NCBI GenBank assembly: GCA_965198115.1
Contig: OZ240241.1
Span: forward strand, 4,832,001-4,896,000
DNA length: 64,000 nt
Reading direction: 5' to 3'
DNA from: Candidatus Latescibacterota bacterium
GTDB taxonomy: Bacteria; Latescibacterota; UBA2968
Shown here: one piece after another, positions 9,088 to 26,371 of the stretch
Numbering within the stretch: the stretch's first letter is position 1
Layout of the letters: every line of letters begins with the position of its first letter
Program-made: the position numbers and the translations under genes
The notes under the pieces: model-generated
The model's input: only the letters and a program-made list of their open reading frames with translations
Databases searched by the model: none
Told to the model about the DNA's origin: nothing

Positions 9088-9512
9088 ATGCCCGCATTCC
9101 GCTCACGTCCTCGCCGCACATCGTCCATGGGGACGCTCTGGAAATCTGGTCCCAACTGCTGAGACCGGAAAACTGTGACTTCGTCTTCGGCAATCCACCC
9201 TTCGGGGGCGCGAAGTTCCAGAGCAAGACTCAGCGCGCGCAGGTGCGAAGGATCGCGGACCTTGGAGGGAGCGGGGGTACGCTCGACTACGTGACCGCGT
9301 GGTTCATCAAGGCGGGAGAGTACGCGTATGGGACCGAGGTCCGGATCGGATTCGTGGCCACCAATTCGATCACCCAGGGGGAGCAGGTGGCGCAGCTCTG
9401 GCCGATCCTGTTCAACCGCTGTGGGCTGGAGATCGCCTTCGCCCACCGGACGTTCGCATGAGGATCGGACGCACGTGGAAAGGCCCATGTGCACGTAGTC
9501 ATCATCGGGCTC
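9088..9512 (+). pseudogene. MmeI-like type IIL/IIG DNA adenine methyltransferase internal fragment
   Basis: IPL..SPHIVHGDALE...FVFGNPPFGG...LDYVTAWFIKA...FVATNSITQGEQV...FAHRTFA*GSDARGKAHVHVVIIGL, with an in-frame TGA at 9459. Confidence 0.85.
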
Positions 9513-10340
9513 GTTCTGCTTGAACTTCGGCATTGCGAACAGTTTCGACCGCCCCTGGGACTTTGTCTCGAAGTAGCGGTCGAACGACCGTATGTCGCTG
9601 GTCCTTCCCGAATCCACGCCGCGCCGGATCCACTGCACGAACATTCGGAACGGTTCGTCCGGTTCGGATCCGCCTAAATGCGTCCCGGTCGCCGCGGACC
9701 ACGATTCCTGCCACTCTTCAAGGCCATCCCGATGGACCGCGACCCCGTAGGTGCCTTTCGCGCCCTTGCGTACCTCCTCCCGCGCGGCCTTGGCCACCTT
9801 GCCCCACCTGACGGCATGTCCGTCCAGCGTCACGATGAGGTTCGGTGCCAGGCCCTCTTCCATGCCTGCCGCGAGCACGCCGCAGGTCCTCACCAGCGTT
9901 TCGCGGCTCAGTCGCGACTCCCCCGCCAGCACGAACACGAGTAATTGCTGCATTTCTCGGTCCGCGGGCCGATCTTCGCCCAATTCGATGATCGAATCCC
10001 GATGCGGAGACAGGTAGTTCCGTCTCAACGGAATCGGTTCCCCGGATGTCGGATGCGGCATCCGATCGGGCACCATATGTCGCCGTAACGCCTTCGCGGA
10101 TGAGATCTTGGCAAACGCGTCCTTGAGCGAGCCTCCGTCCAGCCGGCTCTTGATCTCGCACACGGCGATCACGCCTTCGCAAGGGTAGTACGTGGTCTGC
10201 GGCGTCCTGTTGACCGAGAACACCGGGCAGAGGTCCCGCTCGTAGAGAACCACGTCCTGCTGCCGGCTCGTCCCCCCGTAGCTGTCTATGACGAATCCCT
10301 CCCCGACTGCCACGCTCCTGGGCAGCACCTGCTGCATTTC
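9513..10340 (-). pseudogene. DUF6602-type protein, apparently 5' truncated
   Basis: QVLPRSVAVGEGFVIDSYGGTSRQQDVVLYE...YYPCEGVIAVCEIKS motif. Confidence 0.7.
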
Positions 10341-10399
10341 GTCATCCTTGCCGGAGAGTTCGGGGAGGGGGGAATCCCCGTTCCGGCGACCATCGACTG

Positions 10400-10812
10400 T
10401 CCTTTTGGGCGGGGGTGCAGAGCGACCAGAGATCAAGGATTGGAATCAAGTTGTCGCCGAGCTGTCTCCGACAGTCTACTGGCTCGGAGCAACAACAACG
10501 GCAGTTGACGAAATCATCTTCGTCGGTACTGGATTCGCAGTTTTGAACGACGTGATCGTTACCAACTTTCACGTTGCGCTTAGTGCTTCCCTCATCATGA
10601 TAGCCACGAAAGAGACTGGACTGGATCCAGCTTTCGTGGCTATTCGCTCGTCGGGCCGTGGTTCAATAGCCTCAGATGTCTTTTTTTTAAGAATCGATCC
10701 CTCAAGCGGGGACGCCGTGGGATTCTTTCATCCTAAGTATGACGGCACAACCACAGCACCCGACCTGGCTCTGATTCAACTCTATCTTGGAGTCGAAGAA
10801 AGCTCTATGTAA
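10400..10812 (+). pseudogene. Trypsin-like serine protease N-terminal fragment
   Basis: GTGFAV, IVTNFHV (catalytic His) and PDLALIQL (catalytic Asp); stops before any GxSG motif. Confidence 0.65.
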
Positions 10813-10924
10813 GTCCCTGTCGAACACTACACTTACGCCATTTTCGTCCAGCGTCCAATCGCTCGCGGATTGTATGTTGCGCAGGCTATTTCTCACGCGG
10901 ATTATACGCTGCGGCATAAAGCTC

Positions 10925-11158
10925 CCGTCAGATGCAGCACCCCGCGCCGATAAACCTTCCGTCAGATCACGTGCGGTTCCGGCCAAAGGGCGACGTGCGC
11001 TCCGGCGCAAGGGGCGCAGCCTGACGCGGATTTTATGCGTACGCATAGATTGCGCGTCTCTCTGAATGTTTTTTCGGGGATGACATGGAGGTACAAAAAA
11101 TATCCGTCAGATTTTCTCAACTGACGGAGCTTGCAAAAATATCCGTCAGATTTTTCTC
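10925..11158. repeat. Cluster of CCGTCAG(A) motifs including a ~25-bp direct repeat
   Basis: CCGTCAGA at 10925, 10959, 11104 and 11143, inverted CTGACGG at 11121; CAAAAA(A)TATCCGTCAGATTTT(T)CTC at 11094 and 11134. Confidence 0.75.
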
Positions 11159-11290
11159 TCCGGCCCGGGGGAAGTGTTCATAGAGGTGGGCATCTAAAGG
11201 CTATCCAGGTCGAACAGGGCATTACTGGAGCCTTCAATTCACAAAAACCGGTAAAATTTCCCTTGTTCGTACCGGATCGTAGCTTAAAAG

Positions 11291-12710
11291 GGCTCTATCC
11301 GGGTTTCTCAACGGTGAAACTATAGAATGACAAGGTCATAGATCGTTCCCTACGCTTGGTTGTGTGTGTAGGACAATCAAAGCGAAGGGGGTGCGACCTA
11401 TGACCGGGAGCAGATTACTATCGAAACTGCTGAGATTCAAGGGGTTCCGTGTTGTCAGCTGGTGGTTTGAGGGGAGAAGCTGTTTCGTCATCGCCGTAAA
11501 GCCACATAAGAATGGTTGTTGTTGTCCGGAGTGCGGCCGTCGAGGTAAAATCGTCCGCACAATGCCCCATCCGCGTCGGTGGCGTGACATTCCGGTGTGC
11601 GGGTGGAGGGTCTGGCTTCTCTACCATCCTCGGGAGATTCGGTGTCCTACCCACGGTCGTGTGGTCGAGGAGATTCCGTGGGCGGAGCGGTTCTCTCGGG
11701 TGACGTATCGCTTCGAGTATGCCATGCTGCGCTACTGCCAGACCATGACGCAGAAGGCGGCGTCCGAGTTACTGCGCATCTCTGCCTCGACGCTGTCGGA
11801 TCTCCTTCACCGATCCATCACGCGGCTTCGTGAAGGTCATCGTATCCGAGGGCTCAAAACCATCGGGATCGACGAGATCTCCTACGCCAAGCGTCACAGG
11901 TACGCCACGCTCGTTTACGATCTGGACCGCTCCTGCGTGGTGTGGGTTGGCCGCGGCAGGGCGCGTAAAACGATCGATCGGTTCTTCACAGAGGCTCTCA
12001 GTCCCTACCGGAGATCCAAGATCGAGTGGGCCTGCTGCGACATGAGCGAAGCTTACATCGGAGCCATCCAGGAACACTGTCCGAATGCCAAGCTGGTCCT
12101 CGATCGCTTTCACATCGTCAAGGCTCTCAATGCCGCCGTTGACGAGGTCCGTAAGGACCAGTGGCGTAAAGCTGCCCGGATGAGCGCAAAGCCATGAAGG
12201 GCCTCCGATGGCTCCTCTACCGGCACTCAGCGACACGCTCCAGAGGGGATACTCGGACACTCAAAGCACTGGAGAAGGCGAACTACCGAATCTATAGAGC
12301 CTGGAGACTCAAGGACGAGTTCGAGCAGTTCTGGGAATACAAAGCGCCCTGGGCTGCCGAACGCTTCCTGAAATGCTGGACGACGTCCGCACTCAGAAGT
12401 CGACTTGAACCCCTGCGAAAGTTCGTCAGGACCCTGCGACAGCACTTCTTCGGCGTCCTCGCATTCGTGAACACGCGTCTTACCAACGCCATCGCCGAAG
12501 GCCTCAACCGAATCGTCCAAATCGTCAAGAACCGAGCCAGCGGATTCCGCACACTCGACGCATTCAACGATATGATCTTCCTTACCGTCGGAGACATAAA
12601 CATCCCTGAGCAGATTCCGAAGAGGTTCCGCACACTCTAACCGCGCCCCCCATGCCAGGAACCACGGCACCTTCACCCACTTCATCTCGTTGAGAGATCC
12701 GGATATAGCC
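11291..12710 (+). mobile_element. ISL3-family IS, copy 2
   Basis: Near-identical to copy 1 in opposite orientation; flanks CTTAAAAG (left) and TTTTTTCT (right) do not match each other. Confidence 0.95.
11364..12640 (+). pseudogene. ISL3 transposase, frameshifted near 12175
   Basis: Same two-ORF split as copy 1. Confidence 0.9.
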
Positions 12711-12745
12711 TTTTTTCTTAGCCCCGGTGGCTCCGGGAGCCAGAT

Positions 12746-12765
12746 TTTTCCGATCGATCGGAAAA
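12746..12765. promoter_or_regulatory. Perfect 20-bp palindrome, possible operator
   Basis: TTTTCCGATCGATCGGAAAA, in DNA that belongs at or before the 5' end of the radical SAM gene. Confidence 0.35.
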
Positions 12766-12830
12766 TTAACTTGGAGGACAAAAATTCGCAGGGGGGCTCG
12801 TCGGACGACTAGATACGATAGACTGACACG

Positions 12831-13742
12831 TCAGTCGACGACGATGGGTTGCTTGATGTCCCTGCCGTCGAACGTGCGAGTGAGGGCGGTTTCCAGTTGC
12901 GTGAGTGTCCCGTCGTCGATGCTGCCACCGGGGTGGCGAACGCGACTGGATGACATAAGACCGCGCTGGCGGAAGATGTCCTTCCGGATGGCGACGCCGG
13001 GTTGGCCTTCGAAGACGATGAGGGGAAGGTAGCGTGTGTAGATGTCCATCACTCGACCGTGATCGTCGTTTCTCGCGGCGGCGACCATGGCCATCAGCAC
13101 CTCGGGGAACGCGAAGCCGGTCATGAATCCGTCTGCCCCTCGGGCGAGTTCGTATCCGCCGTAAAGGGCGCCGAGGCCTGTGAGGATGGGCAGCCTCCGA
13201 GTGGTCATCCCGGCGATCAGAGCGGCGACACGCGCGGGAGACGGAACGGCTTCCTGTTTGATGCAGGCGACGGCCTCGATCTCGGCGACCATTCGCAGGA
13301 CCAGGTCGAGCGGCATGTGAACCTGTGTGCTGATCGGATGATCCTGGAGGACGATGGGAAGTTCAATGGCGTCCGCAATGCGGGCGAAGTGCTCGTAGAT
13401 GCGTTGCGCATTTGGCGTCGGCTCTCGGTGGGGGGTGACCATGACACCCTTCGCTCCGAGGGCGTGAGCGGTCCGGCTCAGATCGATCGTGGCCTGGGTG
13501 CCGCTGTGACTCGTGCCGACGACGACGGGGATCCGATCATCTGCTGCTGCGACTGCGGTTTCTATCAGTCTCGATCGCTCGGCGTCGACCATCCGGTTCG
13601 CTTCGCCCAGCACACCGAGGATGGTGACGCCATCCACGCCGAGATCGACCATAAAGCGAATGATGTTCGCGAACGCTTCAGCGTCGAGCGATTCGTCTTC
13701 GTTGAAGGGCGTGGGGAGGATGGGGTAGACGCCGGTGAACAT
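12831..13742 (-). CDS. Dihydrodipicolinate synthase/aldolase family protein (not canonical DapA)
   Basis: GVYPILPTPF, GVLGE, IPVVVG and Schiff-base Lys in CIKQE; QDHP replaces YNIP. Confidence 0.9.
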   Translation of the reverse strand: MFTGVYPILPTPFNEDESLDAEAFANIIRFMVDLGVDGVTILGVLGEANRMVDAERSRLIETAVAAADDRIPVVVGTSHSGTQATIDLSRTAHALGAKGVMVTPHREPTPNAQRIYEHFARIADAIELPIVLQDHPISTQVHMPLDLVLRMVAEIEAVACIKQEAVPSPARVAALIAGMTTRRLPILTGLGALYGGYELARGADGFMTGFAFPEVLMAMVAAARNDDHGRVMDIYTRYLPLIVFEGQPGVAIRKDIFRQRGLMSSSRVRHPGGSIDDGTLTQLETALTRTFDGRDIKQPIVVD

Positions 13743-13772
13743 GCAAGCCTCGTGGACGGTAGACAGTGGACG

Positions 13773-14165
13773 TTACGGATTGATGATTTTGAGTCCCAAA
13801 TGTGTGGAGAAAGCGGAGTAGTAGCGATCGCAGTGGAGTAGGCCGATTCCCGTGTCAATGCAGAACGTCGCAATTAGACAGTCGACCGTGCTTCGTACCG
13901 TTAATCCCCTCGCGCGAAGTGTCCTGTAGTTCCTCGCAGACTTCACGGCTGTGGCGAGGTCGGTTTCGAAGATACTTAGCTTGGTCAGCTGTCGATAGAT
14001 CCGATTGGCTTCCCGATCTGACGCGGCTCCCTGAAGGCATTCACAAACGATCAGATCCAAAGACGCGAGGGGCTCGATTTGCAGGTTTTCATCGAGCCAT
14101 TGCGTGTGCGCGGTTTCGGTGCCTCGAAAGAAGTCGATCCAGACGGACGTATCGACAAGGGTCAA
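13773..14165 (-). CDS. vapC: VapC PIN-domain toxin
   Basis: LVDTSVWIDFFRG...ECLQG...LRARGLTVRSTVDCLIA...LLHCDR. Confidence 0.92.
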   Translation of the reverse strand: MTLVDTSVWIDFFRGTETAHTQWLDENLQIEPLASLDLIVCECLQGAASDREANRIYRQLTKLSIFETDLATAVKSARNYRTLRARGLTVRSTVDCLIATFCIDTGIGLLHCDRYYSAFSTHLGLKIINP

Positions 14166-14359
14166 AAGCGACTCTTTCTCATGTCATCGAGGTCGCCTTC
14201 CCACTGGATTTTGCCTTTCAGCCTTCGGATGTCACCTTGGGCCTGAATTCTCACCAACGCTTTTAGGCCTTCCTCAACAACTGCCCGCTTGGTCTTAAGC
14301 CCCGTAGCTTTCATCGCTCTGGTCATAAGATCGTCGTCGATCACGATGTTCGTTCTCAT
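14162..14359 (-). CDS. vapB: VapB antitoxin
   Basis: MRTNIVIDDDLM..AM..TG.KTKRAVVEEGL..L..WEGDLDDMR; overlaps vapC. Confidence 0.92.
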   Translation of the reverse strand: MRTNIVIDDDLMTRAMKATGLKTKRAVVEEGLKALVRIQAQGDIRRLKGKIQWEGDLDDMRKSRF

Positions 14360-14373
14360 TCGCTATCCTAAAA

Positions 14374-14403
14374 ATGTGTATTAATTTGAAATCCATGTGT
14401 ATT
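14374..14403. promoter_or_regulatory. Putative vapBC operator
   Basis: Direct repeat ATGTGTATT at 14374 and 14395, just upstream of vapB. Confidence 0.4.
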
Positions 14404-14463
14404 GAATGTAGCGAATCGGAGTGGTTGCGACAAGTTGTTCTCTCTCGTGCGCACGTAGCACGA

Positions 14464-16429
14464 TCAATAAACACGGATTCGGTTGTCGGTCGTGCCTGTT
14501 GCGATGTCGATCATCAACCAGAAGCCGGCGACGACAATCTGGCCGATGATGACGCCATAGGCTATGGGCCTGGATCGATCGTAGGCGCGCAGGCCACCCG
14601 CGCGGATGACGATGGACTTGAGCGCCCAGGCGACAAGGAACGGAAACCAAAGGGAGGTCATGATCCAGGCGGGGCTGACCATGTAGCCCAGCGGATGGAG
14701 CGGCCACCAGGTGAACCGATACGTCGCGAACGTAAGGAGCCCCATGACGGCCGCGCCGACACCGGTCCACATCCAGCCACCTGTGTTCGGCTGGGTCGGG
14801 TTTTGCATTTTGAGTGACGCAAGGTCGGGTGCGTATTTGGCGAAGCCCTGGAAGTACTGCTGATGCAGGTTGGCAGCGCCGTAGGCGTGTCCGAGCGAGA
14901 TCATGACGGTCACCGAGACGACGAGACTGAGGACCATCGCGCCGAGCAAGGCCCCGAAGTGCGGGCCTCGCGAACGGACCTCCTCGTCGTGGGCAACGCG
15001 GACCGCGTGAGCAACGGGCGCCATCATGAAGGAGAGGAGGTCGCCGACCCACACGAGAGTGAATGACAAGGCGACAAGGCCGGCCGTGCCGATGGCGTCG
15101 GTCCCGAAGGCCGACAACGTGAATCCGAGGGGGATCATGGCGGGGACGATCGTTGCCAACCCGCCGTCAACGATGGCGCGGGTGAGTGACATGAAGATGA
15201 CCAGGGCACTGACGATGACGGCGAACGCGATCCAGATGGGCAGCCCGGCTCGCGTCATCCATCCAACCAGGATGGAGAACCCGATCAGTAGGCCCAGAAC
15301 GGCCGTGCAATCACGTACGATTTCTCGGCCATCGTCGATGTTCCCACGCGCGCGGCGATACACGTCTCGCAGGTGGTCTCGTGCCGTCCATAATCCGAAG
15401 CCCACGAAAACCAGCATTGCGCCCATGCTCTGGTGTGAGAAGATCGGGTCGACCTGCCCGGAACCTGTTCAGGGCCCGAGCTTCTCGTTGTTGTAGATCC
15501 CGAGGATATCGCACGCGCCCTGTGCAAACTCGTGGAGCAGGTAAAAGACCCACAGGCTGAAGCTGAGGCGTGTGTTGACGAGATAGGCGAATCCGAGCAT
15601 CAGCGGATTGAGACGGAGTCGCAGATTGACTCGGTTCCGGAGGGTGACGAGGCGAGGGGCCTGGATGAACAGCTGCGGAAAGGTCGGAAAGTAGACGTGC
15701 AACGCCTCCAGCGAGCCGATCAGGAAGGGGAAGACGAACCCGGACCAGACTGCCTTCGACCGGAAGAATGGCGGGATCCGTCGATCGTCCACTTCAGCCA
15801 TCGCGAGTGGGACCTGCATCACGGGGTAAGGCAGCCGTTCGCGCTCCATCCATTGGCGACGCAGGATGACCATGAGAGACAGGATGGTGGTCCAAAGGGC
15901 GAGCAGCAGGATGAGCCAGCCTAGAAGCGGCTTCACCCAGGATGACCAGATGGCGGCTTCGCCTCTCGGTACCCCCTCATAGAAGGTGGCGCAGCCCATC
16001 GCTTGGTCCCACGACGATCCAGTCCTTCGTGTAGGGCAAGATGAGATCCGCCCATTGGTTCTCGGCCGTCGCGTAGTAATGAGGGCCGCTGATCATAGAC
16101 AGCATGACACCCGTGACACCCCGCGTGGGGATCGCCGTCGCGACCATCATCATGGCGAAGATGACGAGGAGTTCCGGCTTGTTCAGGGCAGCGGATGTCG
16201 AGGATCGGCGCAGGAAGGGGTTGATGAAGAGGACGAGGACGAAGAAGAGAAAGAAGGCTGCGGGGGTGAGGCTCGACAGACCGAGGCGACTGCCTTTGAC
16301 GAGCATCTCGTTGTAGGGGGTCATCACAGCGATGACCGCGACAAAAGTTGCACCGGTTAGGAGCGCACCAGGCCGAATGCGCGAGGTCTGAGGTTCGGGC
16401 CGTGGATGCTCGGTCAGTGGGAGGGCCAC
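14464..16429 (-). CDS. Large multi-TM protein of DUF6785/DUF6784 type, split by two frameshifts (near 15980 and 15460)
   Basis: Three consecutive hydrophobic ORFs with ELLVIFAMM, LRRQW.ERERLPYP, SFSLWVFYL, WWPLHPLGY and AWALKSIVIRAGG motifs. Confidence 0.8.
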
Positions 16430-16433
16430 GCGC

Positions 16434-16805
16434 TCACGTCTCCGATGATCTGTGGCGCCGATAGGCGACCGAGTAAATGGCGAAGTTGATTAGGAGCAGC
16501 GCGAATCCGAGGAACAGTTGGACGTTTCGCGTTAGGTCGGCCGGATAGATGATCGGCAACAGGTAGTGTCCGATAAAACTCTCCGAGTAGACGGACGAAC
16601 CGCCTGCGCGTCGGAGCGCATTCTCCAGCGGCGTGAGCGGACAGAGCCATCCGAAAAACTCGAGCATCCCGCCCCATACGACAGCAGGAAGGTGAACCCA
16701 CGGCAGCCACCGCCATCGGAGAACGAGCACGCCACCGAGAACGACGAAGACGATGAAAGTGAGATGCAGGAGTACGACGGCATCGGCGAGGGCCTGGTAG
16801 AGCAT
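16434..16805 (-). CDS. DUF2784 membrane protein
   Basis: LADAVVLLHLTFIVFVVLGG...HLPAVVWG...CPLTPLEN.LR..FI.HY..PIIYP. Confidence 0.9.
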   Translation of the reverse strand: MLYQALADAVVLLHLTFIVFVVLGGVLVLRWRWLPWVHLPAVVWGGMLEFFGWLCPLTPLENALRRAGGSSVYSESFIGHYLLPIIYPADLTRNVQLFLGFALLLINFAIYSVAYRRHRSSET

Positions 16806-16846
16806 TGGCGGACAGAAGTTTCAGACTACGAGGAAACTGGCCGTGA

Positions 16847-17245
16847 TCACGATTCGTAGTGCTGACCGAACGCGATGAGGTAGCCGTCGGGATCGCGAAC
16901 CGCGAACTCTTTCATATCGTACTCTCGCTGAATGCAAGGCGCGTATTCGATTCGCGCGCCGTTCGCTTTGACCTCCGAAAAGAGCACGTCGGCATCGTTG
17001 ATCCAGACGTAGGCGTCCCAGTGTTCTTCCTGGTTGCCATTGGGGGTGACGGCGGCGCCTTCGAAGACTTCCTTGAGCATAAAGATGAATCCGTCGCGAG
17101 ACGGCATGGCGAAACTGGGCGGATCGCCCCAGAGCTTCGGCTTGTTGAACCCGAGGACCTTGTGATAGTAGTCGAGCGATTCCACTAGGTTTCGTACGAA
17201 AAAGAAGGGGGCCGTTCCCTTGAACTGCGTCTCGGGCGAAGCCAT
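16847..17245 (-). CDS. VOC/glyoxalase family protein
   Basis: SLDYY.KVLGF and EYDMKEFAVRDPDGYLIAFGQ. Confidence 0.9.
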   Translation of the reverse strand: MASPETQFKGTAPFFFVRNLVESLDYYHKVLGFNKPKLWGDPPSFAMPSRDGFIFMLKEVFEGAAVTPNGNQEEHWDAYVWINDADVLFSEVKANGARIEYAPCIQREYDMKEFAVRDPDGYLIAFGQHYES

Positions 17246-17285
17246 CGATTTTCCTCCGGATGTGTACGTGTCGTTTCTCGGCCCT

Positions 17286-18407
17286 TCACTTCGTGTCGAG
17301 TTTCAGCACGCGGGCGGCCGTTTCCCCCATGATGGCGGAAAGCGCGTCCTCGTTCAAGAATGCGCAATCCTTCTCGATCCACCTGCGGGATTGCCGGTAG
17401 GTGCAGAAGCGGTTCTGGAACGGCATGTCGGTGCCCCACATCAGTCGATTCGGACCGACGCGCTCGACCATTTCTTCCACGACCGGCCACAACTCGCGAT
17501 ACGGGTAGTCGAACCAATCGCCGAGGCGAACGGGCAAGCAGAGCTCGAGGTAACAGTTCGTGTGGGTGAAGGGTTCCCACACTGCTTCCGGTATGACGAT
17601 GCGATCGTTCTCGCGCATCAGTCGATAGGGAAAGCCGTGGGTGAGGCCGCAGGGCGTATCGGGATACCGTTCCATCCAGCGCATCAGGATCCGTTGCTGT
17701 TCGATGTAGCCTTCGATGTGACCGGCCGTGCTGGCATCGCTCGCGCGGTTGGTTCCGAGAGTGAAGAAGACGGGGAGATCGAACGCCGCGGCGGCTTCCC
17801 AGAACGGACGATACGGACCGTCGTCCCACGCCTCATTGCAGTGGAGATAGGCCAGGTCGGGAATGAACTTGATGGCGTGTAACCCGTGCGTCCGAATAGC
17901 GACTGCCAGTTTATCGATGACGGCGTCCGTTTCTGCGACAATGCGCCACTCGTCGACCGGGGCCATCGAACGAAGTCGATCGGGGTAGGCCCTCACGCAT
18001 TCGGCCTGAAATTCACTCGCGCGGCCGAGCGTGGGATCGGTGTGTAACAGCGCGACATCGACACCGGCATAGTCCATTTCGGCGATCAGGCTGTGAGGGG
18101 TGAATTCGAGATTGCGAAGGTTGGGGGGCATCCAGTATTTGGTGTAGTCCTGGCCGTCGATCGTCCAGACGACGCGCCCGCGGTCGTGATCTGCGCGAAA
18201 CACCACGTCGGGTAGATCGTCAAGGTCGTTAAAGCCACCGGGTGCGAGCGCCGCCGCGTCGGCCGACGAGCGATCCGACAGCCGCATCGCGGGCTGGTGA
18301 TGGCCTGCATTCGCGGTCTGCAACCAGTTGAGATGTTCGGCTGAGCTCGCGTGTCCGGCCGGGGTGTCAGCTGGTGTGAAGCAGTATGCGTGAGCGTCGA
18401 CGATCAA
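17286..18407 (-). CDS. Amidohydrolase_2 family protein
   Basis: IVDAHAY, MDYAGVDVALL and RLMWGTDMPF. Confidence 0.88.
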   Translation of the reverse strand: MIVDAHAYCFTPADTPAGHASSAEHLNWLQTANAGHHQPAMRLSDRSSADAAALAPGGFNDLDDLPDVVFRADHDRGRVVWTIDGQDYTKYWMPPNLRNLEFTPHSLIAEMDYAGVDVALLHTDPTLGRASEFQAECVRAYPDRLRSMAPVDEWRIVAETDAVIDKLAVAIRTHGLHAIKFIPDLAYLHCNEAWDDGPYRPFWEAAAAFDLPVFFTLGTNRASDASTAGHIEGYIEQQRILMRWMERYPDTPCGLTHGFPYRLMRENDRIVIPEAVWEPFTHTNCYLELCLPVRLGDWFDYPYRELWPVVEEMVERVGPNRLMWGTDMPFQNRFCTYRQSRRWIEKDCAFLNEDALSAIMGETAARVLKLDTK

Positions 18408-18626
18408 TCTTCTCTCCTCGTTTGTCAGAGTCTTGTCCGATAGTATCGCCCCGAGTCGATGATTTGTCGAGGATGTGAGGATAGTTCGATTGCTTCGCGC
18501 CGCCAGACTTTGGAGGATTATGAAATGTCGTCCCCAGAAACTTGCAGCATCCTGAAGCGATTACGCGTGGGTCTTGGCTTACTGTTCTGTCTGCGTCGGC
18601 ACGACTTTCGAGCGGCCGGGACATTC

Positions 18627-20057
18627 ATGAGCACGTTTTATGGCGGGCGTGTCTTGCCTGTTCGTGTTCTTCGGATGTGGGGATGGGCTCTGGGTCAAAT
18701 GTTTGGAGAGATTCCTCGTGCGCTGGCGTCTGTCACGTTCGACAAAGAAGTGTCCCGGACGCCGATCTGGCTTGCCGAGGGGAACCGGTTGGCAAACCAT
18801 CCGTGGGAGAAAGATCCACAGACCGAGCTACCCGAATCGGTGGACGCCGTCATCATCGGCGCCGGGATGACTGGAGCGGGCTGCGCTTATCATTGGTCAA
18901 AACAGGCCGATGCCGAAACCGCCGCCGTGTTGGAAATGCACGATCCCGCGTGGGGCGCGAGCGGACGGAACGAAGGCCTCGTGGTGATGGGGCGCTACTT
19001 TGCGATGGTGCGTGACACGGTGCGTCCCCACCTGGAAAAGGTCCGATCGGATCTGGATGCGGACAGTCGGACCCACCTGGCGGAGCAGTTTGCGGCTGCC
19101 TACACACGTAGCGCCTACAAGAACGCCGATCTGATCGAACAGACGATTCGCGAAGAGGGGTTCGACTGCGATTACGCGCGCGAGGGTTGGATCCAGGCAA
19201 GAGCCAGGGCGGATCAGGCGTCGTTGAGAGAATCGGTTGAAGCCGGATACGCACACGGGTTCGAAGACTGGACGTCGATGGCGCCGGAGGAGGTGCGCGA
19301 ATCGGGTGGGATGATCGTGGATGCGCCGGCTGGATTTTCCAAGCGGGCAGCTTCTTTCCATCCGGCGAAGTGGGTGTGGAGCCTGTTGGAGAAGGCAATG
19401 GAACGGCCGAATGTCCGACTCTTCACGCGAACGCGTGTGACCGGTGTCGAGCGAGACGGCGACGACTATCGCGTCCACACCAATAGGGGTGTCGTTCTGG
19501 CGCGATCGGTGATTAACGCGATCGAGTCGCACACGGCTTCGCTGCACGAGCGATATGGCGAGTTCATCTATCCCAGACAGACGCAGGCCGCGTTCGGAGA
19601 TGGTGGCCCGAGCACAATGAAACCGCACATCGGGTTGAGTGGGATGCAGGGCTGGTTCGGCCGTCACTGGGGAGGCGTGATGGTAGGGTCGGATAATACG
19701 CGGATACCGGCGCGTCGGGCTAATTGCATCAACCCATCGCGATTCATCACCGGCTTCTTACTGGGGCAATTGCAGAGACACTTCGGCCGGAGTCGAGTTC
19801 ATATCACGCACGAGTGGAGCGGGACGCCCGGGTTCACGGATGATGAGTTTCCGGTGGTCGGTGTACTCGATGATCATCGGCAGTATGTGATCGGGGGGAT
19901 GTGTGGGTCAGGGACCGCGGTTTCGTTCAACGGTGCCCGACACGTGGTGCAGAAGACGCTCGGGTTGGAGGGGCCGGACGACTATCCGGAAGCATATTTC
20001 GCCCCGAGCCGTCTGCTGGACCCGGAAAACCACGACTGGCCAAACATCGCAGACTGA
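18627..20057 (+). CDS. FAD-dependent oxidoreductase (DAO/PuuB-like)
   Basis: VIIGAGMTG, GASGRNEG, FHPAK, WSGTPGFT.DEFPVVG and GGMCGSG; start chosen at ATG 18627. Confidence 0.88.
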   Translation: MSTFYGGRVLPVRVLRMWGWALGQMFGEIPRALASVTFDKEVSRTPIWLAEGNRLANHPWEKDPQTELPESVDAVIIGAGMTGAGCAYHWSKQADAETAAVLEMHDPAWGASGRNEGLVVMGRYFAMVRDTVRPHLEKVRSDLDADSRTHLAEQFAAAYTRSAYKNADLIEQTIREEGFDCDYAREGWIQARARADQASLRESVEAGYAHGFEDWTSMAPEEVRESGGMIVDAPAGFSKRAASFHPAKWVWSLLEKAMERPNVRLFTRTRVTGVERDGDDYRVHTNRGVVLARSVINAIESHTASLHERYGEFIYPRQTQAAFGDGGPSTMKPHIGLSGMQGWFGRHWGGVMVGSDNTRIPARRANCINPSRFITGFLLGQLQRHFGRSRVHITHEWSGTPGFTDDEFPVVGVLDDHRQYVIGGMCGSGTAVSFNGARHVVQKTLGLEGPDDYPEAYFAPSRLLDPENHDWPNIAD

Positions 20058-20099
20058 GGCACTCACGTACCCTGGTCTTCTTTTTACGAGGATGGTCCA

Positions 20100-20594
20100 A
20101 TGGATCCGCTTTCACTGTTTGGAATGCAGTTCACGCTCTCGTTGGTCATCTTTGCCCTGATCTCGAAGTGGTATATCTCGCCGGCGCTCGACAAGCGTTC
20201 AACAGAGGATGCGCTCGTCCCGCTTTTCCTCGTCCACACGCTTCGTTATCTGCCGTCGAGCGGTTTTGCGCCAGGACAGCTCGACCCGGAGATTCCAATG
20301 GCGGCGATGTCGAGGATCGCCTACGGTGACCTCGCTTCGGCCGTTCTGGCGTTGGTGGCTGTTCTGTTTCTCAGGTTCCGCTGGCCTGCGGCAACGGCAG
20401 TCGCGTGGGTCGTCAACATTCTAATGAGCCTGGACTGGCTCTACGCGACGAGGCTCGCCGCATCGAACGAGCTGGTGACCTACGAGATGGGTGGGAACTG
20501 GTACATCGTCAGTTACTACGTTCCGGTTCTCGCGGTTGTGCACGTCATGATTTTTCAACGCCTATTCAGAGGCCGTCGCTCGTTTACGACCTAG
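20100..20594 (+). CDS. Hypothetical integral membrane protein
   Basis: Four hydrophobic helices, HTLRY and AYGDL motifs, GAGG RBS. Confidence 0.75.
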   Translation: MDPLSLFGMQFTLSLVIFALISKWYISPALDKRSTEDALVPLFLVHTLRYLPSSGFAPGQLDPEIPMAAMSRIAYGDLASAVLALVAVLFLRFRWPAATAVAWVVNILMSLDWLYATRLAASNELVTYEMGGNWYIVSYYVPVLAVVHVMIFQRLFRGRRSFTT

Positions 20595-20952
20595 CCCCGC
20601 CAGGCATTCCGTCAATACGGAACCCAACGTCCTATGCCCGATGAACTCGATCGGGAAAGCGGAAACTGTAGAGGTGTGTTGCAGGAGAGGCGGCGCAATC
20701 CGTGTTGCTGCGGGAATGAGGAGAGCCTTCGAACTGCAAGGTTAGCTCGAAGATTACTTCCGTAGCTCGGGTGTGTGGAGGGGATTGGCTCGGTTGTCGG
20801 GCATCAACAAGCGTACGTCAAGAAAGTCGGCGTGCGCGACGTAGGTCATGGTGCCCTTTCTCCGCACGGCTTTCATGAGAATAGCACGCAGCAACCTGCT
20901 GCCGGTGCGAAACGGGCCAAGGGTGCTCGTCAAGATGCGGAATGCGGCCAAT

Positions 20953-21924
20953 CTAAGCGGCGTCATCAACACGCTGGGCGATCCCCTTCCTGTCGAGCCA
21001 TTCTGCGGCGAGAAGGTAGTCCGTGCCAAGGGGAATACAGTATCTGTCATCCATCCACAACGGATTGATGACGACGTTCTTTTCTAGTCCGTTCAGCAGT
21101 CTGTCGAAAACGGGCGAATCCAAATAGGCGAGGCCGAATGGATAGAGGAACTGGGTTCGACGCGAAGTCGTTGACCAATCGTACAAGCCGTCCTCATCCA
21201 CGATCTGGTCCAGATAGGCCGCACAGGCCATCATGGAATCCATGACACTCGAACAACCTGTAAGGCGATGATATCCGGCCAGTAGCGACAGAGTGATCGT
21301 CGCATAGCCGACGTCCGGCCCGTCGTATTCCCCATAGCACCCGCTGTCGAGCTGGTGTTTCACGATCTTCTCGAACTTTTCCCGCGCACCTTCACGGTAT
21401 TTTTCATCGCCGGTGATGTTGGCGATACACTCCAATGCCTGGCAAGCACCAGCCATCTGATTCGCGACTGCCACGTTGTCGTTTCGCATCAGCCAATCGC
21501 TTGTTGTGCGGAAATCGATCTCGCACGGACCGTCCAGACGGATCCAAGCATCCGCCACTGCCTGTGTCGACATGGCAGTTGCACAGAACGACCGTTCATA
21601 CGGGTAAACTTCGTTCAGCGACCCGTCTTGATTGCGAATAGAAGCCCAATAGCGCACCGCATCGGACACGAGCTGTCTCAATGCCGGTTCGGCGTTGACC
21701 CTGAGTTGGGGCAGCGCTACGGCAAAGAATCGGACGGCTTCCTGAAAGCGCGCGTTGGCTACATCGTGTAGCCTGTAACACCAGTAGTAGCGATCGAAAC
21801 ACCCGTCCGTCTGCCCCGTGCCCGTTCGATCGCACAGGCCGAGCAACCGCTCGCTCAGAACCAGCGCCTTCGACCTTAGCAGTGTACTGGTTTCGAGGGA
21901 ATCTATGTCAGGGGAACTTGGCAT
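20953..21924 (-). CDS. Hypothetical alpha/alpha-toroid protein of the type seen in glycan-biosynthesis clusters
   Basis: GCFDRYYW, EVYPYERSFCATA, ANQMAG, Q.DSG.YGEYDGPDVGY and SRRTQFLYPFG; overlaps the radical SAM stop. Confidence 0.7.
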   Translation of the reverse strand: MPSSPDIDSLETSTLLRSKALVLSERLLGLCDRTGTGQTDGCFDRYYWCYRLHDVANARFQEAVRFFAVALPQLRVNAEPALRQLVSDAVRYWASIRNQDGSLNEVYPYERSFCATAMSTQAVADAWIRLDGPCEIDFRTTSDWLMRNDNVAVANQMAGACQALECIANITGDEKYREGAREKFEKIVKHQLDSGCYGEYDGPDVGYATITLSLLAGYHRLTGCSSVMDSMMACAAYLDQIVDEDGLYDWSTTSRRTQFLYPFGLAYLDSPVFDRLLNGLEKNVVINPLWMDDRYCIPLGTDYLLAAEWLDRKGIAQRVDDAA

Positions 21925-23005
21925 AGTTCAAGTTCAACTCGCTCATGCAGCTGTAGAAACACGAGCGGCAGTCTCGAAGATCATCTCTGACCTTCTGGTA
22001 TTCTAGTGAGTTCCAGATTTCCTTCAGATCCCGGCCTTCCAGTGACATGACCTTGCGGCACTCGTAGTAGTACCCCCCACACGGCAAGATTTCCTGGAAG
22101 CAGTCTACATAGAGCGCGAAATACGGCGCGTGACAGCGCACGGGCAAAGGCTTGCCCTGGAAAAAGTCCGTCAGGGTATCGAGATACTCATCCGAACTGT
22201 CCAGGATTTTATAGCGCTCACTCAACGCTTTCAGCCTGGCCGGTATGTCCGTGACCTCAGGCTTGTCGATTTCGAACAGCAGATCGTCGGGTCGTCCGTT
22301 GGGGTCAAATACATAGGTGTCCTGAATCGGGTTCAGACTCACGTTGTCAACGCCCAGATCCTGCGCCAGCTGTAGGAGTTTTTCCATCTTCTCCCAATTG
22401 TGGGCATTGATCACGGTCGCCATGGTCACGAAGACCTCGTTTTCGAGGCCCAACTCTTGGCGCGACTTCAGTAGGATCTCCATGGCTTCAATCGTGCGTT
22501 CGAACGCACCTTTCTGGCCGCGCGATTCATCGTGTTCCGCTGCATCGGCTCCGTCCAATGAAATGGCGATGGAATCGATGCCGGTCTCTAGCAACGCTTC
22601 TGCCAGGCCTTTTCGCCGAAACAACAGACCATTGGTAGACATGCTGACGGGAATGTTACGCGATTTGATGTGGCGGACGATTTTCAGAATGTCCTCGCGG
22701 ACCAGGGGTTCCCCGCCCGTAATGGAAATGCCCGCAACCTTCAATTCCTCGAACTGATCGACGACGTCCATCCACTGCGCCGTCGTCATCTCCCGGTCCT
22801 TATCGCCCATTTTGTAGACATTACACATCGGGCAGGTTTCGTTGCATCGATACGTCACGACTAAACCGCCAAAAATCGGGCCGTTCAATGGGCGCTGCAC
22901 GTGGTAAGAGATCGGCACGGACACGAGGTTCCAGGCACGGCGCGTCAACCAATCGACGTTTCCGGCTCGAACCTGATCCCTGAGTACTTGAAGATGTTTT
23001 TTTCT
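21908..23005 (-). pseudogene. Radical SAM/SPASM-domain protein, 5' end separated by ISL3
   Basis: CNETCPMC, ITGGEP, STNG, SLDG and C-terminal C...PC...CRSC...C; the ORF-track N-terminus MRNPDRA derives from the IS. Confidence 0.85.
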
Positions 23006-24425
23006 GGCTCTATCCGGGTTTCTCAACGGTGAAACTATAGAATGACAAGGTCATAGATCGTTCCCTACGCTTGGTTGTGTGTGTAGGACAATCAAAGCGA
23101 AGGGGGTGCGACCTATGACCGGGAGCAGATTACTATCGAAACTGCTGAGATTCAAGGGGTTCCGTGTTGTCAGCTGGTGGTTTGAGGGGAGAAGCTGCTT
23201 CGTCATCGCCGTAAAGCCACATAAGAATGGTTGTTGTTGTCCGGAGTGCGGCCGTCGAGGTAAAATCGTCCGCACAATGCCCCATCCGCGTCGGTGGCGT
23301 GACATTCCGGTGTGCGGGTGGAGGGTCTGGCTTCTCTACCATCCTCGGGAGATTCGGTGTCCTACCCACGGTCGTGTGGTCGAGGAGATTCCGTGGGCGG
23401 AGCGGTTCTCTCGGGTGACGTATCGCTTCGAGTATGCCATGCTGCGCTACTGCCAGACCATGACGCAGAAGGCGGCGTCCGAGTTACTGCGCATCTCTGC
23501 CTCGACGCTGTCGGATCTCCTTCACCGATCCATCACGCGGCTTCGTGAAGGTCATCGTATCCGAGGGCTCAAAACCATCGGGATCGACGAGATCTCCTAC
23601 GCCAAGCGTCACAGGTACGCCACGCTCGTTTACGATCTGGACCGCTCCTGCGTGGTGTGGGTTGGCCGCGGCAGGGCGCGTAAAACGATCGATCGGTTCT
23701 TCACAGAGGCTCTCAGTCCCTACCAGAGATCCAAGATCGAGTGGGCCTGCTGCGACATGAGCGAAGCTTACATCGGAGCCATCCAGGAACACTGTCCGAA
23801 TGCCAAGCTGGTCCTCGATCGCTTTCACATCGTCAAGGCTCTCAATGCCGCCGTTGACGAGGTCCGTAAGGACCAGTGGCGTAAAGCTGCCCCGGATGAG
23901 CGCAAAGCCATGAAGGGCCTCCGATGGCTCCTCTACCGGCACTCAGCGACACGCTCCAGAGGGGATACTCGGACACTCAAAGCACTGGAGAAGGCGAACT
24001 ACCGAATCTATAGAGCCTGGAGACTCAAGGACGAGTTCGAGCAGTTCTGGGAATACAAAGCGCCCTGGGCTGCCGAACGCTTCCTGAAATGCTGGACGAC
24101 GTCCGCACTCAGAAGTCGACGTGAACCCCTGCGAAAGTTCGTCAGGACCCTGCGACAGCACTTCTTCGGCGTCCTCGCATTCGTGAACACGCGTCTTACC
24201 AACGCCATCGCCGAAGGCCTCAACCGAATCGTCCAAATCGTCAAGAACCGAGCCAGCGGATTCCGCACACTCGACGCATTCAACGATATGATCTTCCTTA
24301 CCGTCGGAGACATAAACATCCCTGAGCAGATTCCGAAGAGGTTCCGCACACGCTAACCGCGCCCCCATGCCAGGAACCACGGCACCTTCACCCACTTCAG
24401 CTCGTTGAGAGATCCGGATATAGCC
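23006..24425 (+). mobile_element. ISL3-family IS, copy 3 (intact ORF)
   Basis: Same IRs; flanks TTTTTTCT (22998-23005) and TTAAAAG (24426-24432). Confidence 0.95.
23079..24356 (+). CDS. ISL3-family transposase
   Basis: Continuous 425-aa ORF with zinc finger and DDE motifs. Confidence 0.95.
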   Translation: MCRTIKAKGVRPMTGSRLLSKLLRFKGFRVVSWWFEGRSCFVIAVKPHKNGCCCPECGRRGKIVRTMPHPRRWRDIPVCGWRVWLLYHPREIRCPTHGRVVEEIPWAERFSRVTYRFEYAMLRYCQTMTQKAASELLRISASTLSDLLHRSITRLREGHRIRGLKTIGIDEISYAKRHRYATLVYDLDRSCVVWVGRGRARKTIDRFFTEALSPYQRSKIEWACCDMSEAYIGAIQEHCPNAKLVLDRFHIVKALNAAVDEVRKDQWRKAAPDERKAMKGLRWLLYRHSATRSRGDTRTLKALEKANYRIYRAWRLKDEFEQFWEYKAPWAAERFLKCWTTSALRSRREPLRKFVRTLRQHFFGVLAFVNTRLTNAIAEGLNRIVQIVKNRASGFRTLDAFNDMIFLTVGDINIPEQIPKRFRTR

Positions 24426-24505
24426 TTAAAAGCGATCACAATCGTGTCGATGATGCGTGGCTCGTCGTCTGCGGTGGCGATTCTGACGGTGGCCATCTGT
24501 CCCTC

Positions 24506-26371
24506 CTACTTCTGCAACGGTAGCTCGATGTAGCTGGCTGCGTCGCTCGTGTGATGAATCCGCTGCGTCGCTTTTTGATAATCCCCCATTTTGGCCCAGG
24601 CAATGTTTTTGACGAAGGTCTGCGGGTTCCGGTCGTAGATAGGGAACCACGAGCTCTGTATCTGTACGAGAATGCGATGACCCGACAGGAAGGTGTGGTT
24701 CACGTGGGGCATCGGGACGCGATACGGGAGGACCTCTTCCGGCGGAATCGGACGTGCGGTATCGAAGCTTTCGCGGTAGCGACCGCGCAGGATGTCGCCG
24801 GAGATCATGAATTGATATCCCCCGAGGTCCGGTTTGGACGGCACTTCGTTCGGGAAGAGATCGATGAGTTTGACGACCCAGTCTGCGTCTGTCCCCGTGG
24901 TCGAGGCGAAAAGGGTGGCTGAAATCTCGCCACGAACTGTGATTGGCTCTGTTAGCACCTCGCTGACGAAGGTGAGCACATCGGTCCGATCGGCGAATGG
25001 ACGCTGATCGTCGACGAGCCAGCGTCGCCACGTGGATCCGCTTCCGCCGATAGGCGGGATCGGACGAACGCGGTAAGGCACGGGTTTGGCGGGATCCGAG
25101 ACGTATTCGGTGAAAGGATCGCCGGCGCGGGGCGGTTTGAAAGACATACTGCCGGCGGGATGCAGGTAGAGCCGGGTCTGTTTCAGACTTTCCGGGGGCC
25201 AGGCGCTAAACTCGCGCCAGTCGTGACGACCTGTATCGAAGGCAAGGACAGGCGGAAGCGCCTCGGCCGGTCTTTTGCCCTTGAGATGGTGGTCCCAGAA
25301 CGGCTTCTCCATTCGCCTGCGGTACTGTAAGGCGGTGTCGGCGTCCCACTTGAGTGAGCCGAGGGAGGAGCCGTCGCCCGTGCTCTGACCGTGGCACCAC
25401 GGACCGATGGCCATGTGGGTTCTCCGTCCGCTGCGATCGCGTTTGGCCATCGCGGCGTGGCTGGCTGGCGGTCCGTAAATATCCTCCTGATCGAAAAGAC
25501 TGTGCACGGTGAGGACAGGTACTTTACGCGGGACCCTGGCCAGCTGACGATCGACGGCCAGGTCCTGCCAGTAGTCGTCGTAGGCGGGGTGGTCGATCAG
25601 CCGTTTCCACGCGGGAAGCCGGTCCAGTCCGTGTCGACGTCCGAGCTCACCGATGGACCCGGCCTCGAGGACGGCCGAGTAATGGTCGTGGTAACCCCAG
25701 GGGATCTTGTGGCTGGCGTTCTTGCTCGAGGTCTGGCGGTAGACGTACTCCATCATGACCGTGCGGTAGGCACCGTGACGGTAGAAGTCGTCGCCGATCC
25801 AGGAGTCGACCATCGCGTTGACGGGCACGGCTGCCTTGAGGGCGGGGTGTGGCTCGAGGAGCGACAGGAGGGTGAGCAGCCCGTCGTAGGAGACGCCGGT
25901 GATGCCGACACGGCCGTTGTTGTTCTCCACGTTTTTCAAAAGCCAATCGACGGTGTCCCACGCGTCCGTGGTCTGGTCGACCTTGCCGCTGTTGAAGGGG
26001 CCCCGCGAGGGCATCGTCATGATGTACTTGCCCTTCGAGCGGAAGCGCCCCCGCACGTCCTGATAGGCCCGGATGTAGCCGTCTCGTACGAGCTCTTCGT
26101 CGGCGGGGGGCAGGGCCATTGCGATGTCGGGACTTTCATTGCGTGACGCCCGGCTGGCGGCACTGTAGGGCGTGCGCGACAAGATGATCGGCATCTTTCG
26201 CGACACGTCCTTCGGGATCGCGATGATCGTGAACAGCTCGATGCCGTCGCGCATGGGCACCATCGCCTCCACGCGTGTGAAGTTGAAGCCAGTCGTGGTG
26301 GTCTTGAAGGTGCGGGGGACATCGCTGGTGCCGGCAACGTCGCCAGCGGATTTTTTCTTCCTTTTGGCCAT
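24506..26371 (-). CDS. CocE/NonD family hydrolase (alpha-amino acid ester hydrolase-like)
   Basis: MRDGIEL, RTPY, QDVRGR, GVSYDG nucleophile, FDQED, GPWCHG and QIQSSWFP. Confidence 0.93.
   Translation of the reverse strand: MAKRKKKSAGDVAGTSDVPRTFKTTTTGFNFTRVEAMVPMRDGIELFTIIAIPKDVSRKMPIILSRTPYSAASRASRNESPDIAMALPPADEELVRDGYIRAYQDVRGRFRSKGKYIMTMPSRGPFNSGKVDQTTDAWDTVDWLLKNVENNNGRVGITGVSYDGLLTLLSLLEPHPALKAAVPVNAMVDSWIGDDFYRHGAYRTVMMEYVYRQTSSKNASHKIPWGYHDHYSAVLEAGSIGELGRRHGLDRLPAWKRLIDHPAYDDYWQDLAVDRQLARVPRKVPVLTVHSLFDQEDIYGPPASHAAMAKRDRSGRRTHMAIGPWCHGQSTGDGSSLGSLKWDADTALQYRRRMEKPFWDHHLKGKRPAEALPPVLAFDTGRHDWREFSAWPPESLKQTRLYLHPAGSMSFKPPRAGDPFTEYVSDPAKPVPYRVRPIPPIGGSGSTWRRWLVDDQRPFADRTDVLTFVSEVLTEPITVRGEISATLFASTTGTDADWVVKLIDLFPNEVPSKPDLGGYQFMISGDILRGRYRESFDTARPIPPEEVLPYRVPMPHVNHTFLSGHRILVQIQSSWFPIYDRNPQTFVKNIAWAKMGDYQKATQRIHHTSDAASYIELPLQK

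What the first reader, a model, noticed from the sequence alone, without database searches (positions are those of the whole stretch)
11283..24433. ISL3-bounded 10.3-kb block with swapped TSDs: an integrated, circularly permuted DNA circle
Seen: ISL3 copies 2 and 3 are direct repeats and neither has matching flanks of its own. The outer flanks match each other (TTAAAAG at 11284-11290 and 24426-24432) and the inner flanks match each other (TTTTTTCT at 12711-12718 and 22998-23005). Joining the inner ends through one TSD restores an open frame (…EPPGLRKK|HLQVLRDQ…). So the upstream/5' part of the radical SAM gene lies 10 kb away, at the opposite end of the block. Known: a-IS-b…b-IS-a is the signature of a cointegrate, or of recombination with an IS-bearing circle as in IS26 translocatable units. 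I do not know it as typical of ISL3. Inference: a non-replicative circle of ordinary genes (DHDPS-like, intact vapBC, DUF6785, amidohydrolase, FAD oxidoreductase; no rep or integrase seen) existed and was captured. It may re-excise or amplify through the IS pair, with vapBC stabilising it. A repeat-collapse misassembly would still require a closed loop in the graph.
Basis: partly seen in the sequence, partly recalled or inferred. Interest (0 to 1): 0.85.

Follow-up and report, generated by a model that had tools for sequence, protein, structure and literature searches.

The report
IS-shuffled piece of host chromosome
Two copies of a jumping gene that has 226 full copies in this genome bracket 10 kb of mostly native chromosome and carry each other's insertion scars, likely because a crossover between them re-placed the segment, which is ordinary reshuffling and likely not the capture of a foreign DNA circle.

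Summary
The swapped flanks are real and exact (7-bp outer, 8-bp inner); chance is about 4e-5 per pair. Short-read contigs confirm all four junctions at single-copy depth. The joined frame has no start codon: 14 of 14 close radical SAM homologues begin M-R-x-K-H exactly at the 8-bp repeat, where the join gives a Leu codon, and an open frame there is a coin toss (107 of 226 IS flanks). Six block genes lie in the same order beside the right flank in a same-genus genome, so the block is mostly native, not captured. Only about 9 bp beyond the inner repeat may be a remnant of the methyltransferase that precedes this gene in homologues. The genome holds 226 full copies of this ISL3 and three more exact swapped pairs, one of them direct and 534 kb apart. 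Most likely: a crossover between two resident copies excised and re-inserted local DNA. The signature is a known cointegrate signature; interest is low to moderate.

The parts
10800..11283 (.). Left flank: member of a genome-specific intergenic repeat family (13 hits in G000); two paralogues match it up to TTAAAA and then continue with sequence unlike the right flank
11284..11290 (+). Outer repeat a, left copy (TTAAAAG)
11291..12710 (+). ISL3 copy 2, 1420 bp, transposase frameshifted by a 1-bp deletion shared with only 2 other copies of 226 (one is window copy 1)
12711..12718 (+). Inner repeat b, left copy (TTTTTTCT)
12719..12727 (-). Three codons (Pro-Gly-Leu) that fit the 3' end of the methyltransferase found upstream of the radical SAM gene in its closest homologue loci; possible remnant (inferred, pattern chosen after the fact)
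12728..12742 (.). Perfect 7-bp inverted repeat with a 1-base centre; candidate IS-free joint (inferred)
   Evidence: sequence
12741..12775 (.). Palindromic motif found at about six other intergenic places in G000
12809..12829 (-). Six-codon remnant of the gene that follows DHDPS in G001
12831..13742 (-). DHDPS-family aldolase; orthologue at this locus in G001 (83%)
13773..14359 (-). vapC (13773-14165) and vapB (14162-14359), both open; not at this locus in G001
14464..16429 (-). DUF6785/DUF6784 membrane gene in three pieces (one ORF in G001)
16434..18407 (-). DUF2784, glyoxalase-family gene, amidohydrolase; first and third syntenic in G001
18459..20594 (+). FAD oxidoreductase and 164-aa membrane gene; syntenic in G001, where a short-chain-dehydrogenase-like gene (label recalled from its N-terminal motif) and then the peptidase follow
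20595..20753 (.). IS-free joint between native genes and the foreign cluster fragment; no similarity found to any flank tested
   Evidence: bridged by one contig
20754..23005 (-). Fragment of a cluster known from other organisms: small ORF, 323-aa unknown protein, radical SAM/SPASM gene lacking only its start codon; GC 55% against 60% for the rest of the block
22998..23005 (+). Inner repeat b, right copy; it is the Arg-Lys-Lys codons of the radical SAM gene
23006..24425 (+). ISL3 copy 3, intact transposase; differs from copy 2 at 7 alignment columns (median for all pairs 6)
24426..24432 (+). Outer repeat a, right copy (TTAAAAG)
24506..26371 (-). Right flank: CocE/NonD (peptidase S15) hydrolase, part of a run collinear with G001 that starts at DHDPS

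Best explanation
The block is mostly native chromosome lying between two resident ISL3 copies with swapped flanks, and it was likely re-placed by a crossover between a copy at the start of the radical SAM gene and a copy beside the peptidase gene, likely through a short-lived non-replicating circle of local DNA. Shown: swapped flanks, native gene order, lost start codon, single-copy depth, other swapped pairs in the genome. Inferred: (1) a foreign cluster (methyltransferase, radical SAM, two more genes) entered near these genes; (2) ISL3 hit the A-rich run at the methyltransferase/radical SAM boundary, and about 40 bp with the start codon were lost, either by slippage between two A-rich runs or between two close insertions; (3) another copy sat at site a; (4) one IS-by-IS crossover (host recombination, or transposase-driven) plus one IS-free crossover exchanged the order of neighbouring segments. 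The IS-free joint is more likely at 12728-12742 than at 20595-20753 (about 55 to 35). The order of the two crossovers cannot be read from one genome.
For: Double match about 4e-5 per pair; 4 exact reciprocal pairs among 40 units (780 pairs) that lack their own duplication, about 0.07 expected. The other direct pair (2745963/3281238, 534 kb) has outer flanks that are neighbours in G001:C6 to within about 9 kb, so excision and re-insertion through this IS is likely to have happened in this genome. Common SNPs occur in many combinations across 226 copies, as expected with recombination between copies. Tandem IS-IS junctions with spacers foreign to their flanks fit IS circles entering resident copies. 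Synteny with G001. Pro-Gly-Leu before the repeat fits the methyltransferase end: 1 of 367 distinct IS flank 9-mers and 0.14% of random 9-mers fit the pattern. Copies 2 and 3 are not sisters, so two earlier copies, not one replicative event. Precedent for the flank pattern: PMC7986276.
Against: The outer match is only 7 bp, and two paralogues of the left flank continue with other sequence after TTAAAA, so a former left-flank/right-flank join is not proven; the likeness of G001 across that join is weak (81 of 3000 random contexts and 6 of 202 IS contexts score as well). No reciprocal joint was found: TTTTTTCTCAT is absent from G000, no methyltransferase orthologue was found (best E 4e-15, partial), and 20595-20760 matches no flank tested. 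The Pro-Gly-Leu pattern was chosen after looking; at DNA level the match is not significant (p 0.04-0.41); two more distant homologue loci and one partial have no methyltransferase upstream. One proven chimera elsewhere (5167614) also has a perfect 8-bp match, so chance matches may be commoner than the null says. G001 is only about 70-80% identical.
Confidence: 0.55

Rival explanations
1. Only the inner match is a true target duplication. A tandem duplication of the block with the IS at the joint was later trimmed on each side by separate deletions between IS copies, and the outer 7-bp match is chance.
For: 40 of 207 IS units lack their own duplication, so such deletions are common. Left-flank paralogues already carry TTAAAA. 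A 7-base match has a 0.9% chance. Needs no re-insertion next to the old site.
Against: Needs a duplication, two deletions and a chance match. Copies 2 and 3 differ at 7 columns, though later recombination with other copies could do that. The last G of repeat a differs from both paralogues and matches the right flank.
Confidence: 0.2
2. Both matches are chance. Each copy is a plain deletion product between two AT-rich target sites; the right one removed the upstream part of the foreign cluster.
For: Explains the lost start codon and the synteny with the fewest odd steps. The scan looks at very many windows and would pick out such coincidences. Chimera 5167614 has a perfect match.
Against: About 4e-5 per pair; identical duplications at unrelated sites are 5 of 4851 pairs; the Pro-Gly-Leu fit would be a third coincidence.
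Confidence: 0.08
3. One reading: a non-replicative circle from elsewhere, closed in 20595-20950 and carrying an intact radical SAM gene, was captured by recombination with a chromosomal IS.
For: The flank pattern and the open frame; no rep gene seen; an IS-free joint does lie at 20595-20753.
Against: Six block genes are native neighbours of the right flank; no start codon in the join; the open frame is expected about half the time; in G001 DHDPS is followed by another gene whose first six codons survive here.
Confidence: 0.06
4. Assembly artefact: the cell holds an 11.7-kb circle (b-IS-b) and an empty chromosomal site (a-IS-a), and the assembler fused them.
For: Short-read contigs end inside the IS at all four junctions, so both pairings fit the graph.
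Against: Depth equals the chromosome's (8.1 and 10.6 against 7.3-9.7 in X1; 9.1 and 9.95 against 8.3-13.4 in X2) with no rep gene seen; the genes are chromosomal in G001; a single 8.4-Mb contig across 226 copies implies reads longer than the IS (inference).
Confidence: 0.05
5. The transposase carried flank bases from one site to another (spacer of the IS circle kept at the new junction), so the matches are copies, not crossover scars.
For: 26 copies have an 8-bp duplication with one mismatch, 18 of them at a base next to an IS end; some flanks inside known repeats carry extra bases. ISL3 circle spacers derive from flanks (PMC5559704, passages).
Against: No link between IS haplotype and duplication sequence over 99 sites (Mantel r 0.01, p 0.30); carry-over of whole flanks in both directions has no simple path.
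Confidence: 0.06

Closest known systems
IS-bounded cointegrate with distributed direct repeats, e.g. pBK32533 (TGTTTTTT-IS26-TTATTAAT / TTATTAAT-IS26-TGTTTTTT; PMC7986276, passages read)
   Same: Two direct IS copies with reciprocally swapped target repeats.
   Different: There two plasmids fused by replicative IS26 transposition; here the enclosed DNA is mostly local chromosome, the IS is ISL3, and the two copies are not sisters.
IS26 translocatable unit and the IS2-like megacircle of Burkholderia thailandensis (PMC7986276, PMC6350997, passages read)
   Same: Non-replicating circle of one IS plus neighbouring DNA that enters next to a resident copy and rebuilds a composite structure.
   Different: Those circles were detected and shown to need transposase; none was detected here, depth shows no extra copies, and those units do not need matching inner flanks.
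Copy-out-paste-in elements with tandem dimers (IS30 network, PMC9333248, abstract and first part of the Introduction read; ISL3 listed among such families)
   Same: Tandem IS-spacer-IS junctions (19 in this genome), deletions, inversions and cointegrate-like products.
   Different: Dimer attack on the same chromosome gives a deletion or an inversion, not this order by itself; a second crossover is needed.
ISL3 family (8-bp AT-rich duplications, circular forms; PMC3469429 and PMC5559704, passages read)
   Same: Transposase family, about 20-bp imperfect terminal repeats, mostly 8-bp AT-rich duplications.
   Different: Very high copy number (226 full copies, 3.8% of the genome) and a minority of 7-bp or end-altered duplications.

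Membership tests
ISL3 insertion sequence | ISL3 DDE transposase | tested here: met
   PF01610 E 5e-67; NF033550 302 bits, cut-off 180
ISL3 insertion sequence | Terminal inverted repeats beginning GG | tested here: met
   19 of the first 22 bases pair
ISL3 insertion sequence | 8-bp AT-rich target duplication | tested here: met
   142 of 226 copies exact 8 bp; AT-rich profile
ISL3 insertion sequence | Circular intermediate with short spacer | tested here: inconclusive
   19 tandem junctions with 5-10-bp spacers in the chromosome; free circles cannot be told from contigs
IS-bounded cointegrate | Two direct copies with reciprocally swapped duplications | tested here: met
IS-bounded cointegrate | Enclosed DNA was a separate replicon or outside circle | tested here: not met
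   Six genes native at this locus in G001; no rep or integrase family among 11 ORFs scanned
IS-bounded cointegrate | Each rejoined target restores native sequence | tested here: inconclusive
   Inner join lacks the start codon but may link within about 40 bp; outer join weakly supported
Replicative (IS6-type) cointegrate | The two IS copies are identical sisters | tested here: not met
   7 differing columns, about the median for random pairs
Translocatable unit / megacircle | Free circle with one IS detected | not testable with these tools
   Only collapsed short-read contigs are on hand
Translocatable unit / megacircle | Raised copy number or tandem array of the unit | tested here: not met
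   Depth equal to flanks; no second copy in G000
Translocatable unit / megacircle | Transposase-dependent, RecA-independent movement | not testable with these tools
   Needs genetics
Composite transposon | Outer duplication around two copies | tested here: met
   7-bp TTAAAAG
Composite transposon | Cargo moved to an unrelated site or seen at several sites | tested here: not met
   Single copy in G000, native locus in G001

The most novel reading that the evidence does not exclude
This ISL3 moves host chromosome as translocatable units: its transposase excises IS-plus-neighbour circles of 10 to 500 kb and inserts them at resident copies without RecA, as IS26 does. The two direct swapped pairs and the tandem junctions with foreign spacers would be frozen products, making ISL3 a whole-chromosome shuffler in this lineage.
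Probability: 0.15. Interest if true: 0.55.

Novelty: new member of a known kind. Interest (0 to 1): 0.27.

Why it matters
As it stands it is a neat fossil of IS-driven reshuffling in a genome where one ISL3 fills 3.8% of the DNA, and a warning that swapped target repeats plus an open frame do not prove a captured circle. It would matter more if the movement proved transposase-driven, since targeted insertion of IS-plus-neighbour circles is described for IS26 and an IS2-like element, and six literature searches listed no such study for ISL3; that library lacks most subscription papers.

Tried and rejected
Looking for the native upstream of the radical SAM gene in G000: no TTTTTTCTCAT, and none of the 8 near variants lies at an IS end; no methyltransferase orthologue in G000 or at E 1e-30 in 132 class genomes (no positive control genome). 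Fused methyltransferase/radical SAM proteins: none among longer proteins, weak evidence. Reciprocal joint at 20595-20760: no significant match to left-flank paralogue continuations, the G001 intergenic stretches or the homologue cluster (p 0.26-0.95). The 23-codon ORF at 24428-24496 looked like an acetyltransferase start (recalled); no search confirmed it, so it is not used as evidence. Cluster at G000 3.29-3.31 Mb as the source of the fragment: G001 has only a 37% paralogue of the 323-aa gene there. Flank carry-over as a general rule: no correlation. Contig 'joints' 12711-23005 and 12716-22999 are read as tandem-IS junctions from other loci, not as excision (inference). Run X3 held 28% of the words at depth 0-4 and was uninformative. 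Rfam: no match in 8000-28000. First genome-contig scan found nothing. Earlier scan findings: none fit. The region left of the window (4.75-4.83 Mb) is a patchwork of G001 contigs and IS elements with no cluster genes seen.
Full report
Observation. The two IS copies lie at 11291-12710 and 23006-24425, both on the + strand. TTAAAAG flanks the outside (11284-11290, 24426-24432) and TTTTTTCT the inside (12711-12718, 22998-23005), exactly as stated. The element is ISL3 by Pfam and NCBIfam. The window lies in a single 8.43-Mb contig with 270 BLAST hits to the element, 226 of them full length. Of the 226, 142 have an exact 8-bp duplication and 9 an exact 7-bp one. Left and right flanks from different sites match at 7 or more bases in 303 of 32238 pairs and at 8 or more in 129, which gives about 4e-5 for a double match; each of the two motifs occurs at only 1 or 2 of about 180 distinct flanks. 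The swap is therefore unlikely to be chance.

Assembly. Contigs of runs X1 and X2 (one sample, probably the source of the assembly, so not independent) cover 10286-11315, 12688-17415, 17406-23028 and 24403-26038 with no differing letter, so all four IS junctions and the stretch across 20595-20950 are real. Depth inside the block (8.1, 10.6 in X1; 9.95, 9.1 in X2) equals the flanks (7.3-9.7; 8.3-13.4). Contigs end inside the IS, so they cannot tell the integrated form from a free circle plus an empty site; single-copy depth without a rep gene argues for the integrated form. The block has no second copy in the genome.

The inner join. All 14 full-length homologues of 48-70% identity begin M-R-[KQR]-K-H; the next two hits were a fragment and a 35% relative and are not counted. 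In the four closest DNA loci the ATG overlaps the preceding stop codon, and in the three long enough to show it that stop ends a methyltransferase gene. The 8-bp repeat is the Arg-Lys-Lys codons themselves, so the start codon belongs right beyond it; the 12711 side gives CTA. A stop-free run of 23 codons occurs at 107 of 226 IS right flanks and 61% of random positions. From 12741 the sequence is a palindromic motif seen at about six other intergenic places, and 12809-12829 is the first six codons of the gene that follows DHDPS in G001. So 12711-12790 is not the gene's 5' part.

One detail rescues part of the link. Eight homologues of the upstream methyltransferase have P-[GLI]-[LI]-[RK] about 13 codons before their stop; two read P-G-L-R and one P-G-L-R-K. 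The window reads P-G-L then R-K at 12727-12713 on the minus strand. Only this flank of 367 distinct IS flank 9-mers, and 0.14% of random 9-mers, fit the three-codon pattern. I chose the pattern after seeing the match, the DNA-level match is not significant, and three more distant loci have no methyltransferase upstream. I read it as moderate evidence that the two inner flanks were once about 40 bp apart in one cluster, with the start codon lost between two A-rich runs. That would place an IS-free joint at about 12728-12742, where a perfect 7-bp inverted repeat sits.

Where the genes come from. In G001, the only same-genus genome, DHDPS, DUF6785, DUF2784, amidohydrolase, FAD oxidoreductase and the membrane gene lie in this order, followed after about 1.1 kb by the peptidase and the rest of the right flank; a collinear run covers G001:C47 62731-161533 against G000 4978255-4844811 with 80 kb aligned. 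vapBC, the glyoxalase gene and 20754-23005 are not at that locus in G001. So 12831-20594 is mostly native, and 20754-23005 is a fragment of a cluster known from other organisms. This rules against a captured outside circle.

The outer join. The left flank belongs to a repeat family found only in G000 among 61 genomes. Two paralogues match it up to TTAAAA and continue with other sequence. G001 resembles the right flank from the last base of the repeat, and weakly for about 12 bases to its left (81 of 3000 random contexts as good). A former join of the two outer flanks is plausible, not proven.

Genome context. Collapsing tandem copies gives 207 units; 40 lack their own duplication. Among these are four exact reciprocal pairs: two inverted (1.5 and 2.6 Mb), one direct at 534 kb, and this one; about 0.07 are expected among 780 pairs by the null. 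The outer flanks of the 534-kb pair are neighbours in G001:C6 to within about 9 kb; its inner join could not be tested. There are 19 tandem junctions with 5-10-bp spacers, some foreign to their flanks, and 40 adjacent direct pairs within 15 kb. Copies 2 and 3 differ at 7 columns, about the median of 6, so they are not fresh sisters; shared SNPs occur in many combinations. Against my reading, one chimeric site has a perfect 8-bp match.

Mechanism. Shown: swapped flanks, native order, lost start codon, single copy, other swaps. Inferred: an IS at the methyltransferase/radical SAM boundary and an IS beside the peptidase gene crossed over, and a second, IS-free crossover exchanged neighbouring segments, most simply through a brief non-replicating circle of local DNA. 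The reciprocal joint was not found and would have to be lost, which is plausible in the IS-dense patchwork to the left. Any DNA between direct IS copies can loop out by host recombination (established knowledge), so re-excision is possible but not special; a role for vapBC is untested.

Comparison with what is known. The swapped pattern is described for the IS26 cointegrate pBK32533 and as the expected outcome of cointegration (PMC7986276, 12 of 27 passages seen). ISL3 is listed among copy-out-paste-in families that form circles and dimers (PMC9333248, abstract and first part of the Introduction), with 8-bp AT-rich duplications and flank-derived circle spacers (PMC5559704, 9 passages; PMC3469429, 4 passages). 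A large IS-plus-neighbour circle that inserts beside a resident copy is described for an IS2-like element (PMC6350997, 12 of 37 passages). No supplements were read; none seems to bear on these claims. The structure looks like a cointegrate but fails membership on the origin of the enclosed DNA and on sister copies.

Verdict. A real IS-by-IS recombination scar in a genome overrun by ISL3; a new example of a known kind. Interest 0.27. The bolder reading, transposase-driven translocatable units for ISL3, has probability about 0.15 and would deserve 0.55.

Noticed in passing
G000 whole genome: 226 full copies of one 1420-bp ISL3 (3.8% of the genome), 174 with an intact transposase frame; 19 tandem junctions with 5-10-bp spacers, some foreign to their flanks (467238, 1644045, 7664997).
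   Followed up: partly
G000:C1:2745963-3284085: Second direct-repeat pair with swapped 8-bp flanks enclosing 534 kb; outer flanks are neighbours in G001:C6, so a large chromosome piece was likely re-inserted through the IS.
   Followed up: partly
G000:C1:5366047 and 6892475; 379643 and 2976148: Inverted pairs with swapped flanks, marking inversions of about 1.5 and 2.6 Mb.
   Followed up: partly
G000 whole genome: 26 copies have an 8-bp duplication with one mismatch, 18 of them at a base touching an IS end; some flanks carry extra bases. Possibly spacer bases of the IS circle kept on insertion.
   Followed up: partly
G000, e.g. 159821, 1628046, 3096132: The ISL3 repeatedly hits the same AT-rich spot in the ends of two other repeated elements (about 56 and 28 IS-free copies).
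   Followed up: partly
window 1726-3144 and 11291-12710: IS copies 1 and 2 share a 1-bp frameshift found in only 3 of 226 copies, hinting at local hopping or conversion between neighbours.
   Followed up: no
window 10850-11290: Intergenic repeat family with iterated short motifs, 13 hits in G000 and none in 60 relatives; two paralogues lie beside a helicase-like ORF (label recalled from a motif).
   Followed up: partly
window 12741-12775: Palindromic motif present at about six other intergenic places, usually between two genes on one strand; possibly an operator.
   Followed up: partly
window 14464-16429: DUF6785 gene broken by two frameshifts, supported by short-read contigs of X1 and X2; whole in G001.
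   Followed up: partly
window 24428-24496 (-): Ribosome-binding-like site and a 23-codon ORF cut by IS copy 3; a degenerate match exists in G001. Acetyltransferase-like by recall only.
   Followed up: yes
window 20754-23005; L031-L034: Conserved uncharacterised cluster: methyltransferase, radical SAM/SPASM protein, 323-aa protein with no Pfam or NCBIfam family, small ORF.
   Followed up: partly
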